A stretch of DNA of 63,777 nucleotides, filler included, from Chrysochromulina tobinii (GCA_001275005.1; 10 parts of 10 records of this genome joined end to end with filler, not necessarily neighbours in it), one strand, 5' to 3'; shown: positions 5,863 to 46,791, counted from the first letter of the whole stretch. The notes: generated by a model from the sequence alone, not told the origin. Made by a program: numbers and translations.

Positions 5863-7695
5863 GGTGCTCGGCGATCAGCCAGAGGAGATCGCGATCGAGC
5901 AGGCCGAATCGGCAGCCCGCGGGCGCCGACGTCGTGGGAACCGCGCCGTCGTGGGCACCATCGCTCACGTCCATGGCGGCGCCGTCGTGGGCACCACCGG
6001 TTGCAGCCGACGGCGACGTCGGCGCCTCCCGATGGCCGATGAAGAGGAGACGCACACGCACCCAGTTGAATACCCGAGCCGTCCGAAGGAGGGTGCGGTC
6101 CGCCAGCGCCCTCGGGACCGAGCACAGGTTGGGCGTAACGGTCACGCATGCAGAGCAGCCATCTGGAGCCCCGAGCTTGAGCACGCACGAGAGCGCCACG
6201 AGCATCGCGCCGTCGCGCTCGTCAGGAGCTGGCACATCCTGTATCGACGCGTTCCTCCGGATCTCGTCAGGCTCGTCAGGCGCTCGGTACGACGCGCTCC
6301 CCTCGGCGCGCGGCCTCAAGAGCTCGGAGCTGCGATGGGTCTGACTCATCAGCTTGCCCAACTCCCATTCGTAGGATTGTTCCAGGACTCGGCCGACGCT
6401 CGCCGGTCTCCTGCCCACTTCGAACCGAAATTCTGCCTGGTCTCCCCACTTCTCGCTCGGCGTGCGCAGCATGCGCCCGTCGCTCTGGCGCGAAAACAAG
6501 CACTCGCGAACCACGAGCGGGGCGGCGGGACTCCCACACACCTGATGAGGGACGCAATCAGATGCAATCAGAGGTCAATCAGAGATCATCAGAGGTCATA
6601 AGAGGCGAGACTCCCACACACCAGTGGTACAGCCATCCCCGTAAGCGCGGCACCGATGGGCTCCACCGCCCTCACGGCCGCTTCGGCATTGCGCTGCTGG
6701 TGCAGCTTGGCCCGCAGGAGCGAGAGGAGGTCCTCCCGCTCGATGCACCGTTGCAGCTCCGCCTCACTCGTCCTCAGCCGCTTGAGGTGCTGTCGAAGCT
6801 CCTTGGTCGGAAGTCTTGTTGTCGCTGCGTCGACGGCCGACGCGCATGCCGCCGACGCGGACGCGCACGCGCACGCGAGTGCGTCGGTCGCCTCGGCGGA
6901 GGCGGCGGCGCCAACGGCAGCGTCGGCCGCGCCGCTGACCTCTGCGCCGGTCACGCTAGCGGGTACGAAGGGCGGCGCGCTTGCCGAGAGCGTCGAAGGG
7001 GTGGCGTTGCGGATGTGCAGCGCGGCCAACCGGCGGATGAAGGGCACCAGCGGCACGAGCCAGGTGGCGGGCGGGATGAGCACGGGGTAGAGTCGGTCCG
7101 CAAGCAGGGGAAAGTCCGAGCGCACCTTCGCGAGCGCTTCCGTCACGGCACCCGCGCTGTCCGCGTGTAGGAGCCAGTGCACGTTGCTTGGGTGGCCCCA
7201 CGGCGCCGCACGCACGACGCGCACCGGGCCGCCGAAGTACGTCTGCCAGTCGAAGGCGTCCCAGGCACGCGCCTGAGCGGCCGGGGCCGGCGACAGGTCG
7301 TCGATGGACGGCAGGTGTGGCGGGAGCGGCACGCACACGCACTCGCTCAGCCCGCCCGTGTCCTGCTCGATCCAGTGGAACTGTACGAGCACGCGCTCGA
7401 CGAACTTGAGGGTGACGTCGGCGCGCGGAAGCTCGTTCGGGTTGCCGGGCACCAACCGATGGTTGACGAGTTTGGCCAGGTAGCCGATGTCGCCGTGCGC
7501 TGCCTGATAGTTGTCAAAGTTGGGCAGGAAGACGAATGAGCTTCCGCGCTGCGGCTCGCGCAGGCAGCGCTGCACGAGAATGCGGTAGCGCGGCTCGAAT
7601 AAGTGAAGGCCGACGGTGGTGCCGATCTCTGGATGCTGATTGTAATAGAAGATGGAGCGGATGAGCGTGGGGGGAGCCGCGACAGGCTCGGACAT
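5825..7695 (-). CDS. LON peptidase substrate-binding (PUA-like) domain protein. Exons 7695-6622 and 6541-5825
   Basis: GLHLFEPRYRILVQRCL matches the LON N-domain LHIFEPRYR motif. Phase-0 GT-AG intron 6542-6621 joins the two ORFs. Confidence 0.7.
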
Positions 7696-8058
7696 CGACG
7701 ATCTTCGCCTAAGCTAGTGGAACCCTATTTCCGGTCAAGTTCCGCACGCAAACGCTCGTCGAGCGGCGAGACCGGCGAGACCGGCGAGACCGCAGCACAG
7801 CCGCTGGCGCAGTAGTGGGAAGCGCAGCGGGCTCAAGAGCGGGCTCCCTGCGGTCCTCCACGACATCACGTACACGCACAGGATGATCCCGCTAGCAAGA
7901 ATGCTGGTCCTTCTACCTTACCCTTCATGCGAGTACTGCGGATTCGACTGCCGCTGTTATGTTACGAAAATTCAAGGTCCTTCGTGGTTAAGAAATCCCC
8001 CCTACTGAGATTTTTTTTCGTCTCGGATCCAATCCCCGAAGCATCGCGCGCATCAAAA

Positions 8059-8779
8059 ATGGCGTTCGCTCTCCTCTGCTCCGCTCTGTCGCTCGCGCCC
8101 TCGGCGTCGCTCTCGCGCCCGGCCGTCAGCCGTGCCTCGACACCGACCATGCAGCTGACCAAGAAGGTGCGCAACTCGCTCAGCACACTCGGAGCGCCCA
8201 CCGGCGCTGGTGCAGAGCGCAGCGCTTGCGAGCTCTGCCGTGCGAGGATCTGGATGGTATCTACATCTGCGCGGCGCGCCCGGCTCGTGACACGTGCCTG
8301 ACCGTGCTCGGCATGCATGTGCTGCTGCGCAGGTCGTCAGCTTCGACCAGGATGGCCTCTTCGAGGGCCGTGAGATTTCGGTGGCCAAGCCGCCCGTGCG
8401 CCTGCTCGAGCGCATCGAGGAGCTGCGCCTGCTCTCGTCGATTGCGGACGCTGGCCTGCTCTCGGGCGCCGAGGACGCGGGTCTCTTCTCGAAGCTCGAG
8501 GCGGCCGGCGCCTTCAGCAAAGCCGAGAAGCTGCTGCCCCTCGCCGACGACCTCAAGCTCCTCAGCACTGCCGAGTACCTGCTCAACGTCCCGGCCAACC
8601 TGCTCGCCCTCGGCGCCGTCGTGCTCCTCGGCGGCGAGTTCGCCCTGATCACGGCGGTGCCCGATGACAACGCGGCGCTCCTCGGCGTTCAGGTGGTCAC
8701 CGGCCTGCTCGCGGGCGGCGGTGCGGTCGTCCTCCTCGCCTCCTCCTTCCTCTTCAGCCTCCTCCAGGGCACGAACTAA
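8059..8779 (+). CDS. DUF1118-family plastid membrane protein with bipartite presequence. Exons 8059-8166 and 8333-8779
   Basis: Hydrophobic signal plus Ser/Arg-rich transit-like segment. LLSSIADAGLLSGAEDAG..FSKAEKLLPLADDLKLLS..VPDD pattern and two TM helices. Phase-0 GT-AG intron. Confidence 0.75.
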
Positions 8780-44389: not shown

Positions 44390-44669
44390 GCCTTCTCTGC
44401 GAGGCGGCCGCGCGTGCCTCGCGCGGATTCCCTGAGGCCGTCGCCGCGGTGTGCGCGCGCGCGCGCGCGACGACGCGCGACGGCGGCGGCGAGGCGGATG
44501 GGCCTCGTGCCCCCCGGAGTTTTTGTCGATTCATCGCGTCCGCTGCGCGGGTGTATTTACAGAGGAGAGGGGGGGGGGGGTCTTGTGAAGAGGATTCGAA
44601 AAGAAACCTGTGCTCACGGTGCGCATTCACACCACTCGTCATTCACACGCGCGTGCGCGCCGCACCACA

Positions 44670-46791
44670 ATGGCTCGCGCCGCACTCGTGGTCGCCTTGT
44701 GGGCGCTGCTGAGCACGCACACGCACGCGGCCTCCGTCCCCAAGCTCGCCTCGACCGACGCCTTCGATGCCTTCCGCGAGCAGAACGCGGGCTTTGCTCT
44801 GCTCGTGTACGCTCCGTGGTGCGGACACTCGCGCGCGCTGTTGCCCGAGTTTGATTCGGCCGCCGCCTCGAGCAGCACGCCGTTCGCCAAGGTCGACGGC
44901 ACCGAGGCGGAGGAGCTCGCGACGCGCCTCGACATCAAGGGCTACCCGACGCTCCTCTTCATCCACCGCGGCGACGGGCCGCCGATCGAGTTCGACGGCC
45001 GGCGGGATGCGAGCACGATCTCGCGCTGGGTGGCGAGCAAGGCGGCGCCGTCGCTCGCGGAGCTGCACTCGTCATCCGACGTGCTCGCCTTTGCCAAGGG
45101 CAAGCCCATCGCGCTCGTCCTCTTCGCGCCCAACGGGCTCTCGAGCGCCGAGGCAGAGGCGTTGCGCGGCGTCGCCGCGGCATCCACTTTGCCGTGCGCG
45201 GTGGCGACGAGCGACCCGGCGGACGGCGCGCTCGGGCTGGGCGCGCTCACGCCGCCCGTGCTCGTCGCGCTCACGCAGCACGATGCGAAGCACTACACGC
45301 TCGGCCCGCCGCTGAGCCACAAGGCGATGCTGCATTTTGGACGGAGCCACGCGCTGCCGAGTGTGGTGGCGTACGCTACGGGGGCGATGGAGGAAGCCAT
45401 CTTTGGGACGGAGGTGCCGGCGCATCTGCTCCTCTTCCACGCGGGCCCCGTCGACGACGCCCTCGCCTCGAGCCTGGCCGAGCTGGGCGCCTCCCTCCGA
45501 GGACGCGCGCTCGTCGCGACTGTGAACGTGAATGCGCACGCCGAGGTCGCCTCGTACTTCGACGTCGGCCCGTCGGGCTCGCTGCCCACGCCGACGCTGA
45601 TGGGCTTCGCGCTCGCCAACGGCACCAAGTTTGCGCACGCGGGCGCGCTGAGCGCGAGCGCGATGGGCGCCTTCGCTGACAAGGTGCTCCGCGGCGATGG
45701 CCTCTGATTGCCTCCCTAATTGCATGCTGAGCGCGAGTGTGATGGGTGCCTTCGCTGACAAGGTGCTCCGCGGCGATGGCCTCTGATTGCCTCCCTAATT
45801 GCATGCTGAGCGCGAGTGTGATGGGTGCCTTCGCTGACAAGGTGCTCCGCGGCGATGGCCTCTGATTGCCTCCCTAATTGCATGCTGAGCGCCTCCCAAA
45901 TTTGGCCTTTCAAGGTGCTCCGCGGCGAGGCGACGGCGCACCTTCGCTCCCAGCCCGAGCCGGCGCCGAGCGGCCCGCTGGTGGAGTTGGTAGGTTCGAG
46001 CTTCGCGCGCGTCGCCTTCGACCCTGCTAAGGATGTGCTCGTCCAGTTCTACTCGCCCACGTGCGGCCACTGCGCCAAGCTCAAGCCCGTCTACGCGAAG
46101 GTCGCCGCCAAGTAAGCGCCTCGGATTGTGTCATCGGATGGCGCTTGATGGCCTCGGATGGCGCTTGAAGGCCTCGGATGGCGCTTGATTGCGTCTGATG
46201 GCCTCGGATGGCCACTGATCGGCTCGCCAATTGCGTCCCTCATCAGATTCGCGGACGACGAGAGCATGGTCGTGGCGCAGATCGATGCGGTCGCCAACGA
46301 TGTGCCTGGGCTCGAGCCTGAAGGGTACCCGACCATCGTCCTGTACTCGAAGGCGAACAAGGAGGTGCGTGCTCCGCTCCGTCCTAATTGCGTCTGATTG
46401 CGTCCTTGGATACCCTAACAAGGAGGTGAGTGCTCCGCTCCGTCCTTTGCCCAGTCCTAATTGCGTCTGATTGCGCTCCGCTCCGTCCTTTGCCCAGTCC
46501 TTATTGCGTCTGATTGCGTCCTTTGCCCTATCCAACTCGGCGCCCAACTCGGCGCCCACTTCGGCGCCCAACTCGGCGCCCTCTTCGTTGATGGCCTCAT
46601 GATGGCCTCATGACCCCCCCCTCCTCATCCGGCAGGGCGTCGAGTACGATGGCTCGCGTGACATGCACGATCTCGTCCAATTTGTACAAGATGCGCGCGC
46701 TGGGCGTAACCACATTGGCGGCGTGCCGGATGGTGTGGGCAGCGCGGGGCTTCACCCTGATGAGGATGATGGCTTTCGCGTCGAGCTGTGA
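44670..46791 (+). CDS. PDI: Protein disulfide-isomerase. Exons 44670-45683, 45915-46111, 46247-46364, 46636-46791
   Basis: Signal peptide, YAPWCGHS, GYPTL, FYSPTCGHC, GYPTI, EYDGSRD and a C-terminal RVEL retention-like signal. Three GT-AG introns. Confidence 0.9.

What the first reader, a model, noticed from the sequence alone, without database searches (positions are those of the whole stretch)
6542..46246. Intron-forming insertion family B: 10-mer satellite, fixed CCCTCATCAG end, long target duplication
Seen: unrelated genes on different contigs have introns built from 10-nt units such as TGATTGCCTC or TGATGACCTC. Three end in TTGC(G/T)TCCCTCATCAG: 6542-6621(-), 34803-34875(+) and 46112-46246(+). 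Several begin with a copy of the downstream exon start: GTGTGTGGGAGTC (13 nt, LON gene), GGTATGACC(A/T)TGAAGCTGATCCAAGGTCCT (30 nt, PAS gene) and AAGGTGCTCCGCGGCGA (PDI). The GT donor thus comes from the duplicated target and the AG from the insert, so splicing restores the protein exactly. Known: described Introners are mostly TIR elements with short fixed duplications. Inference: variable long duplications, no TIRs and a reiterated unit point to staggered-break repair or target-primed reiterative synthesis, possibly an undescribed intron-gain mechanism.
Basis: partly seen in the sequence, partly recalled or inferred. Interest (0 to 1): 0.82.

Follow-up and report, generated by a model that had tools for sequence, protein, structure and literature searches.

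The report
Active intron-making insertions in an alga
In a freshwater alga, short inserts that copy part of the gene they land in are cut out of the RNA as new introns and are missing from the same genes in close relatives; they likely number in the thousands and likely spread by RNA-to-DNA copying, which would make intron birth testable in a cultured species.

Summary
Observation confirmed, one correction. The three introns end in TCCCTCATCAG. RNA contigs splice all three PDI introns and break exactly as splicing predicts at the PAS intron. 46112-46246 has no duplication; the AAGGTGCTCC duplication belongs to a neighbouring PDI intron. The host is Chrysochromulina tobinii-like. In metagenome copies, 84 of 160 acceptors have an upstream copy of the next exon start versus 0.6% in controls; 41 clean cases span 9-55 nt, median 21. 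Relatives at 91-93% protein identity have empty sites in all three genes tested, so these are recent gains. A fourth copy sits antisense and in frame inside an exon, with the same end and a 23-nt duplication, so the footprint does not need splice selection. A second, unrelated acceptor cassette shows the same footprint (14 of 26), so the 10-mer is not the cause. Best reading: intron 3' ends are copied into staggered breaks, likely by target-primed reverse transcription; no enzyme was found. New variant of Introner-type gain. The scan reported this family before on another piece of this genome (e1-2577349).

The parts
6542..6621 (-). 80-nt GT-AG intron in the LON-like gene; first 18 nt (6604-6621) copy the next exon start (6524-6541), then 10-12-nt units, then TCCCTCATCAG
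   Evidence: spliced product is identical to named public protein P0189 (596 aa); empty in genomic ORFs of relatives P0156, P0170, P0180, P0169. No RNA laid here.
34803..34875 (+). 73-nt GT-AG intron in the PAS gene; 34803-34831 copies 34876-34904 with one mismatch
   Evidence: RNA contigs of X14 and X15 end at 34810 and restart at 34875 while DNA run X13 runs through (indirect, the joint itself was not listed); empty in P0131, P0132, P0133 on contigs up to 9-11.5 kb
45684..45914 (+). PDI intron 1, 231 nt; both splice sites lie in an 18-nt duplication; holds 79-nt tandem copies that span the exon-intron junction
   Evidence: RNA joint GT..AG with 18 letters fitting both sides in X14; empty in 16 fetched ORFs that still stop in intron 2; simpler 84-nt allele with a 27-nt duplication in P0035
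46112..46246 (+). PDI intron 2, 135 nt, GTAAGC donor, family units, TCCCTCATCAG end, no duplication; an older family member shared with the 93% relative
   Evidence: RNA joint in X14 and X15; relatives' ORFs stop at the same in-frame stop; absent from full-length ORFs P0005, P0009, P0011, P0078 on 8-21 kb contigs
46365..46635 (+). PDI intron 3, 271 nt, family-like units, internal copy of the donor junction, different acceptor
   Evidence: RNA joint in X14 and X15; sequence
2291..2368 (-). Fourth copy: 78-nt insertion (23-nt duplication starting AAGG, plus CAG matching upstream, then units and CCCTCATCAG) lying antisense and in frame in a coding exon
   Evidence: host ORF is on the + strand (codon score; 220 homologues); orthologue P0213 spans the site in one ORF without the inserted peptide
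1792..4560 (+). Open frame of an AID/APOBEC-like deaminase gene that hosts the antisense copy
   Evidence: homologues give weak APOBEC/NAD1/SNAD4 Pfam hits below cut-off
3492..3578 (+). Candidate intron with the second cassette (GCTCACCACGGCG ... CCCCACAG) and an 18-nt duplication
   Evidence: not tested by RNA
4125..4203 (+). Candidate intron with the second cassette and a 20-nt duplication
   Evidence: not tested by RNA

Best explanation
These are recently gained spliceosomal introns, each made of a variable-length copy of the exon sequence at the insertion site plus an inserted branch-point-to-AG cassette shared with many other introns, and the cassette is likely copied from intron RNA by target-primed reverse transcription at staggered nicks. 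Step 1 (inferred): the two strands are cut 9-55 nt apart. Step 2 (inferred): the free end primes copying from an RNA that ends in ...CCCUCAUCAG, probably an excised intron, using a retrotransposon enzyme in trans; copying stops after about 20-70 nt. Step 3 (shown by sequence and empty sites): fill-in leaves target copy + cassette + target copy. Step 4 (shown for PDI, indirect for PAS, by annotation for the LON-like gene): if the target starts with GT or GC, the spliceosome removes the first copy and the cassette and restores the protein exactly. Step 5 (inferred): selection keeps sense, GT/GC-starting, long-enough insertions; rare antisense ones survive when in frame. Step 6 (shown by alleles): the intron then drifts, the duplication erodes, and the branch-point-like units and junction segments expand in tandem. 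I put recent gain by insertion with long duplication at about 0.9, and the RNA-templated route at about 0.5.
For: Splicing. Duplication far above chance: 84 of 160 versus 0.57%; 41 clean sites, 9-55 nt, 37 of 41 starting GT or GC; the duplication starts 0-4 nt from the acceptor in 22 of 32 unanchored cases. Empty sites in 3 of 3 genes, read from ORFs that still run into another unspliced intron or lie on long contigs. The LON-like gene carries family-like tails at three further positions in different relatives (P0159; P0158 group, 8 proteins; P0156 group, 5 proteins). Fixed 3' end with variable 5' extent and variable duplication is the established footprint of non-LTR retrotransposition (my knowledge). 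The antisense copy keeps the end and the duplication without splice selection, and its target matches the cassette's last three bases. Two unrelated cassettes share the footprint, so the template is a class of intron ends, not one element. One intron 5' end is shared between unrelated genes: the L060 intron translates VRLLFERLESG..., the same tail as P0156, and P0179 supports it in a second frame.
Against: No reverse transcriptase or transposase among 299 ORFs from 73 loci or 43 window ORFs; this covers a tiny part of the genome. No poly(A) or simple-repeat tail. No excess microhomology at the duplication-cassette junction (mean 1.48 versus null 1.32 +/- 0.23; 69 of 300 simulations as high). 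5' breakpoints do not cluster at a branch-point position. Copies are overwhelmingly sense: 26 satellite loci with sense Pfam hits versus 1 antisense neighbour, and 81 sense, 14 unclear, 4 antisense of 99 by codon score, the 4 being near the method's error (2 of 73); random retrotransposition would be expected to leave more neutral antisense or intergenic copies. Only 41 of 155 satellite-bearing sites are clean; 42 are entangled with tandem duplications and 72 show no duplication. Empty sites rest on predicted proteins, not on DNA I could read. The search pattern fixed the last 17 nt, so end conservation in the 142 loci is partly imposed.
Confidence: 0.5

Rival explanations
1. DNA-only copying. 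At a staggered break or a stalled replication fork, the free end copies the 3' end of another intron from DNA and rejoins a little way back on the original template. The fixed end comes from priming at AG|G junction matches plus splice selection.
For: The genome is rich in local tandem duplications, in exons and across junctions (42 of 83 duplication-positive satellite sites). Family-like units flanked by 21-27-nt repeats without the acceptor occur at 41516-41611(+) and inside an intron near 52186-52280(-). No reverse transcriptase found. Staggered-break intron gain is proposed for Daphnia (PMC4202315, abstract and section 19 read).
Against: No microhomology excess at the variable junction. 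The antisense copy ends exactly at CAG without splice selection. DNA templates give no reason for copying to stop at the acceptor in two unrelated cassettes.
Confidence: 0.3
2. Reverse splicing. An excised intron attacks another mRNA at an AG|G site; the half- or fully reverse-spliced RNA is reverse-transcribed and recombined into the gene. Full reversal gives duplication-free whole-intron copies; one-sided integration gives the duplication class.
For: Strong sense bias; 156 of 198 acceptors are followed by G; 72 of 155 sites have no duplication; the L060 intron sits at CAG|GAG with no duplication and begins with 15 nt matching the LON-like exon, as if moved whole.
Against: The antisense exonic copy at 2291-2368 with a full duplication. 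Sense bias is also expected from selection. No other non-satellite 5' end was shared convincingly among the sampled loci (13 pairs with 1-3 shared 16-mers, mostly motif or low-complexity). Reverse splicing into new sites is unproven (PMC3443670, passages).
Confidence: 0.13
3. No new introns: old introns whose ends were homogenised and whose junctions were tandemly duplicated; empty sites are precise losses by recombination between the repeats.
For: Junction-spanning tandem duplications are common. Precise loss between direct repeats is plausible; P0049 is empty at PDI intron 1 yet close to the window's lineage, and P0104 carries the intronic variant residue in a full-length protein.
Against: Distant orthologues on 8-21 kb contigs are uninterrupted at all three PDI sites; four different positions are filled in different relatives of one gene; an antisense exonic copy cannot be an old intron of that gene.
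Confidence: 0.04

Closest known systems
Introners that carry the 3' splice site and take the 5' site from the duplication (Symbiodinium; Polarella classes 4/5 and 6/8/10; bioRxiv 10.1101/2020.10.14.339549, parts 1-2 of 4 read; PMC9860276, passages)
   Same: Acceptor in the insert, donor from the duplicated target, protein restored exactly, G-rich exon start, many unrelated genes.
   Different: Those have fixed 3-8-nt duplications per class (3-9 nt in PMC9860276) and, in Symbiodinium, inverted repeats. Here 9-55 nt, no terminal inverted repeats, and copies share only about 20 terminal bases.
Chrysochromulina sp. marine MAG Introner family 5 (PMC9860276 Fig. 2C legend) and Emiliania huxleyi fam24 (PMC12130899 supplementary table row)
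   Same: Haptophyte hosts, no TIRs; fam24 is listed as co-opting the 5' site, carrying the 3' site, with '10bp terminal direct repeats'.
   Different: Family 5 has a 4-nt duplication and the opposite polarity. fam24 has 5 copies and a 2-nt automated duplication call; its sequence was not seen. C. tobinii is listed with 0 families in the 2025 survey.
Intron gain by staggered double-strand-break repair in Daphnia (PMC4202315, abstract and section 19; PMC3443670, passages)
   Same: Direct repeats at intron ends, polymorphic presence, later internal duplications.
   Different: Repeats there are 4-17 nt, and the text I read describes no shared acceptor cassette; here the inserts share a conserved end across very many loci.
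Non-LTR retrotransposons and SINE-like passengers; non-LTR Introners (5% of classified families in PMC12130899, section 6)
   Same: Variable duplication, fixed 3' end, variable 5' extent (footprint recalled from general knowledge).
   Different: No tail, no internal promoter or RNA-gene head (no Rfam match in the window), no partner element found, inserts only 22-144 nt.
Tandem genomic duplication of an AGGT-containing exon segment (PMC3443670, passages)
   Same: PDI intron 1 uses AG|GT from both copies.
   Different: Most of each intron here is foreign cassette, not exon copy.

Membership tests
Introner (broad sense) | Related sequence in introns of unrelated genes | tested here: met
   142 loci, at least 26 with sense Pfam hits to unrelated families
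Introner (broad sense) | Spliced out of RNA | tested here: met
   3 of 3 PDI introns joined in RNA contigs; PAS indirect
Introner (broad sense) | Presence/absence among close relatives | tested here: met
   Empty sites in 3 of 3 genes, from predicted proteins
Introner (broad sense) | End-to-end similarity of copies, as from one element | tested here: not met
   118 distinct terminal 27-mers among 155 sites; conservation falls off beyond about -20
TIR/MITE-type Introner | Terminal inverted repeats | tested here: not met
   No shared terminal pair in 4 window copies
TIR/MITE-type Introner | Short duplication of fixed length | tested here: not met
   9-55 nt in 41 clean sites; shorter ones are below detection
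Non-LTR retrotransposon passenger (SINE-like) | Variable duplication, fixed 3' end, variable 5' extent | tested here: met
   the end was partly imposed by the search pattern
Non-LTR retrotransposon passenger (SINE-like) | Poly(A) or simple-repeat 3' tail | tested here: not met
   Copies end in CATCAG directly at the duplication
Non-LTR retrotransposon passenger (SINE-like) | Autonomous partner with reverse transcriptase | tested here: inconclusive
   None in 299 locus ORFs and 43 window ORFs; whole genome not available
Reverse-splicing-type elements (fungal ILE model) | No duplication and strictly co-linear with transcripts | tested here: not met
   Duplications at 84 of 160 sites and one antisense exonic copy; feature list from PMC3443670 passages and recall
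Tandem genomic duplication introns | Intron consists wholly of duplicated exon sequence | tested here: not met
   Inserts of 22-144 nt follow the duplicate in 34 of 34 simple sites
Staggered-break repair introns (Daphnia type) | Dependence on end-joining repair at staggered breaks | not testable with these tools
   Needs genetics; junction microhomology test was negative

The most novel reading that the evidence does not exclude
Introns breed introns without a dedicated element: in this lineage the branch-point-to-AG tail of any excised intron RNA is reverse-transcribed into staggered nicks, the long duplication supplies the donor and the spacer length, and each new intron becomes a new template. 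That would be a self-feeding route of spliceosomal intron gain, active now, in a cultured alga.
Probability: 0.3. Interest if true: 0.93.

Novelty: new variant of a known kind. Interest (0 to 1): 0.78.

Why it matters
How spliceosomal introns are gained is a long-standing question, and about 72% of catalogued Introner families have no assigned mechanism (PMC12130899, section 6). Here gain appears ongoing, polymorphic between lineages 91-93% identical in protein, with a footprint unlike the catalogued short fixed duplications I read about. The window density is 64 exact ends per Mb (95% interval 17-163), or about 3,700 (1,000-9,600) for a 59-Mb genome (size from PMC4580454, passage). The family is invisible to similarity-based Introner screens: C. 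tobinii scores 0 families in the 2025 survey, and a public protein for the PAS gene stops inside the intron (P0128). Similar families may therefore be missed elsewhere. Cultures and sister populations exist, so the mechanism can be tested directly.

Tried and rejected
No whole genome was held, so no genome-wide census. Freshwater DNA runs X20 and X21 gave no orthologous pieces and no empty-site joint; no evidence either way. Viral scans gave 7 and 25 single matches without arrays, read as chance; the prokaryote scan gave 0. All-against-all BLAST of loci gave one allelic pair (L006/L009) with the same introns and an 80-nt array difference, and no presence/absence pair. Junction microhomology: no excess. 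Breakpoint clustering at the branch position: none. Shared non-satellite 5' ends among loci: nothing convincing beyond the L060 case (output was cut). Open-frame test on 40 clean sites: 33 open after splicing, 9 open unspliced; supportive but weak. The '55k' row used a wrong end coordinate and was ignored. Rfam: 0 matches. Rows dropped before counts: 6 viral sites and 21 duplicate sites (225 to 198), 38 with short flanks or internal array position (198 to 160), 5 without satellite units (160 to 155). Literature: 9 searches found no description of this family; the library lacks most subscription journals, the 2022 supplement was cut when stored, two files of the 2025 supplement were not searched, and the preprint's supplements are closed, so consensus sequences of the marine Chrysochromulina and Emiliania families were not seen and could include a relative.
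Full report
Observation. The three named introns are present and end in TTGC(G/T)TCCCTCATCAG. The exact 11-mer occurs four times, against a shuffle mean of 1.12 with one mismatch allowed. The window is ten contigs joined by spacers, 55-65% GC. 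Duplications measure 18 nt with 17 identical in the LON-like gene and 29 nt with 28 identical in the PAS gene, each with one further G upstream; 46112-46246 has none; the PDI duplication (14 + 4 nt) belongs to 45684-45914, which has a different end.

Host. The spliced LON-like gene is letter for letter P0189, which its source names Chrysochromulina tobinii Ctob_015014. The nearest named PDI orthologue is from Haptolina brevifila. The genome paper gives 59 Mb and about one intron per gene, and its single use of 'intron' does not mention these repeats (PMC4580454, passages).

Splicing. RNA contigs of runs X14 and X15 join 46111 to 46247 and 46362 to 46634, and X14 joins 45679 to 45911 with 18 letters fitting both sides; all are GT..AG. 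At the PAS intron, contigs of both RNA runs stop at 34810, just before the one mismatch between the copies, and restart at 34875, while DNA run X13 passes both points. That is the break pattern expected when spliced and unspliced forms coexist; the joint itself was not among the rows shown, so this is indirect. Two RNA-confirmed introns near 31.3-31.8 kb lack both the end motif and a duplication, so the pattern is not a property of every intron.

Family. One metagenome scan returned 142 loci, with about 4,400 stored stretches estimated across assemblies. Of 198 unique acceptors, 156 are followed by G. Of 160 terminal acceptors with enough flank, 84 have an upstream copy of the next exon start at score 9 or more, against 0.57% of permuted pairs. 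Among 155 with satellite units, 41 are clean, 42 are entangled with tandem copies of the junction, and 72 show no duplication. Clean duplications are 9-55 nt (median 21; 15 of 41 perfect; 37 start GT or GC). In 34 simple cases introns are 50-163 nt, and duplication length falls as insert length rises (rho -0.60, p 0.0002), which fits a minimum intron length but could partly reflect how the boundary is drawn. Only about 20 terminal bases are conserved, 17 of them imposed by my pattern; 118 different terminal 27-mers occur among 155 sites. The unit core CTGAT/CTAAT fits the branch-point consensus (recalled, not mapped). Copies lie in the sense of unrelated genes: 26 satellite loci with sense Pfam hits and one antisense hit in a neighbouring gene among 73 loci scanned.

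Empty sites. PDI intron 1: 16 fetched ORFs, most at about 93% identity, read through the site and then stop at the in-frame stop of intron 2, so they come from unspliced DNA that lacks intron 1; P0052 stands on 19 contigs up to 7.2 kb. P0035 shows a simple filled allele, a 27-nt duplication around a 57-nt insert; the window allele has a shortened duplication and 79-nt expansions. Orthologues at 46-58% on 8-21 kb contigs are uninterrupted at all three PDI sites. PAS: P0131 (22 contigs, up to 11.5 kb), P0132 and P0133 read through at about 91% identity and carry the residue of the downstream copy, so the intronic copy is the one that mutated. LON-like: P0156, P0170, P0180 read through the window's site yet end in a satellite-like tail elsewhere; P0158 and seven others, and P0159, stop at two further sites within about 18 codons of the window's. 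These are inferences from predicted proteins; I could not read the DNA, and some short-contig records may be transcripts.

Three observations on mechanism. First, the copy at 2291-2368 lies antisense in a + strand exon: the + frame scores as coding and has 220 homologues, and orthologue P0213 spans the site without the inserted peptide. It is 78 nt, keeps the frame, ends in CCCTCATCAG and abuts a perfect 23-nt duplication that starts AA. End and duplication therefore arise without splice selection (one case). Second, an unrelated cassette (GCTCACCACGGCG ... CCCCACAG) shows the same footprint in 14 of 26 sites versus 1.0% of controls. The 10-mer is thus not the cause, and arrays change after insertion. 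Third, the intron of an AAA-ATPase gene (L060) has the same non-satellite 5' end as the polymorphic tail in the LON-like gene, supported in two reading frames, and its first 15 nt match the LON-like exon. Intron sequence has moved between genes; the direction, and whether the LON-like case is an intron or a rearrangement, are unknown.

Against the preferred mechanism: no reverse transcriptase in the ORFs scanned, no tail, no junction microhomology excess, no breakpoint clustering, and few antisense copies. I therefore give gain by insertion with long duplication about 0.9, and split the route: target-primed copying of intron RNA 0.5, DNA-only templated repair 0.3, reverse splicing 0.13, remodelling of old introns 0.04.

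Known systems. It works like the Introners that carry the acceptor and take the donor from the duplication (dinoflagellate preprint, parts 1-2 of 4; PMC9860276 passages), but fails their tests for inverted repeats, fixed short duplication and whole-length similarity. C. tobinii is listed with 0 families in the 2025 survey and appeared only in the input list of the 2022 file as stored. A five-copy Emiliania family with '10bp terminal direct repeats' is the nearest table entry; its sequence was not seen. Daphnia break-repair introns have 4-17-nt repeats. Nine searches found no account of this family, within the library's limits. An earlier AI note on another piece of this genome (e1-2577349) reached a similar reading and pointed me to the dinoflagellate preprint; it is not independent support. 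New here are the RNA joints, the empty sites, the antisense copy, the second cassette and the shared 5' end.

Verdict. Real, recent and probably ongoing intron gain with an unusual footprint; new variant of a known kind; interest 0.78.

Noticed in passing
window 3492-3578(+), 4125-4203(+), 1191(+), 56401(-); many loci: A second, unrelated acceptor cassette (GCATGCA.GTGCTCACCACGGCG ... CCCCACAG) with the same long duplication; L075 and L015 mix it with family-B units or ends.
   Followed up: partly
L060 901-983(-) and P0156, P0170, P0176, P0179, P0180: Same intron 5' end in an AAA-ATPase gene and, polymorphically, in the LON-like gene of a sister lineage. It also resembles the start of the 39-nt exon just upstream in L060 (11 of 15 bases).
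   Followed up: partly
window 1-4560(+): A gene with two AID/APOBEC-like deaminase motifs and a large uncharacterised homologue family (220 hits); only weak Pfam matches in homologues. It holds several satellite introns (about 1023-1230, 1371-1830).
   Followed up: partly
window 41516-41611(+): 27-nt direct repeat around four CTGAGTACCT units with no acceptor; not a precise intron on either strand; genic context unclear.
   Followed up: partly
window about 52186-52280(-): 21-nt direct repeat around family-like units inside a probable intron, without the fixed end.
   Followed up: no
window 55670-55814(-): Probable GC-AG intron in a phosphoesterase gene made almost wholly of CTGATGACCT units, no duplication.
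   Followed up: no
P0104: Full-length PAS protein carrying the intronic-copy residue; could be splicing at the AG|GT inside the duplication or precise intron loss by recombination between the repeats.
   Followed up: no
LON-like orthologues P0158, P0159 and window 6542-6621: Three independent insertion sites within about 18 codons suggest a hotspot.
   Followed up: no
window 24709-29500: Region with very high summed DNA contig depth in run X13 and a 143/296-nt tandem array at 25917-26613, next to a peptidase M16 frame; multicopy, no transposon domain found.
   Followed up: no
P0013 / P0092: A PDI paralogue shares about 95% identity with the window's PDI over the first 148 residues only, suggesting a recent chimeric duplication.
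   Followed up: no
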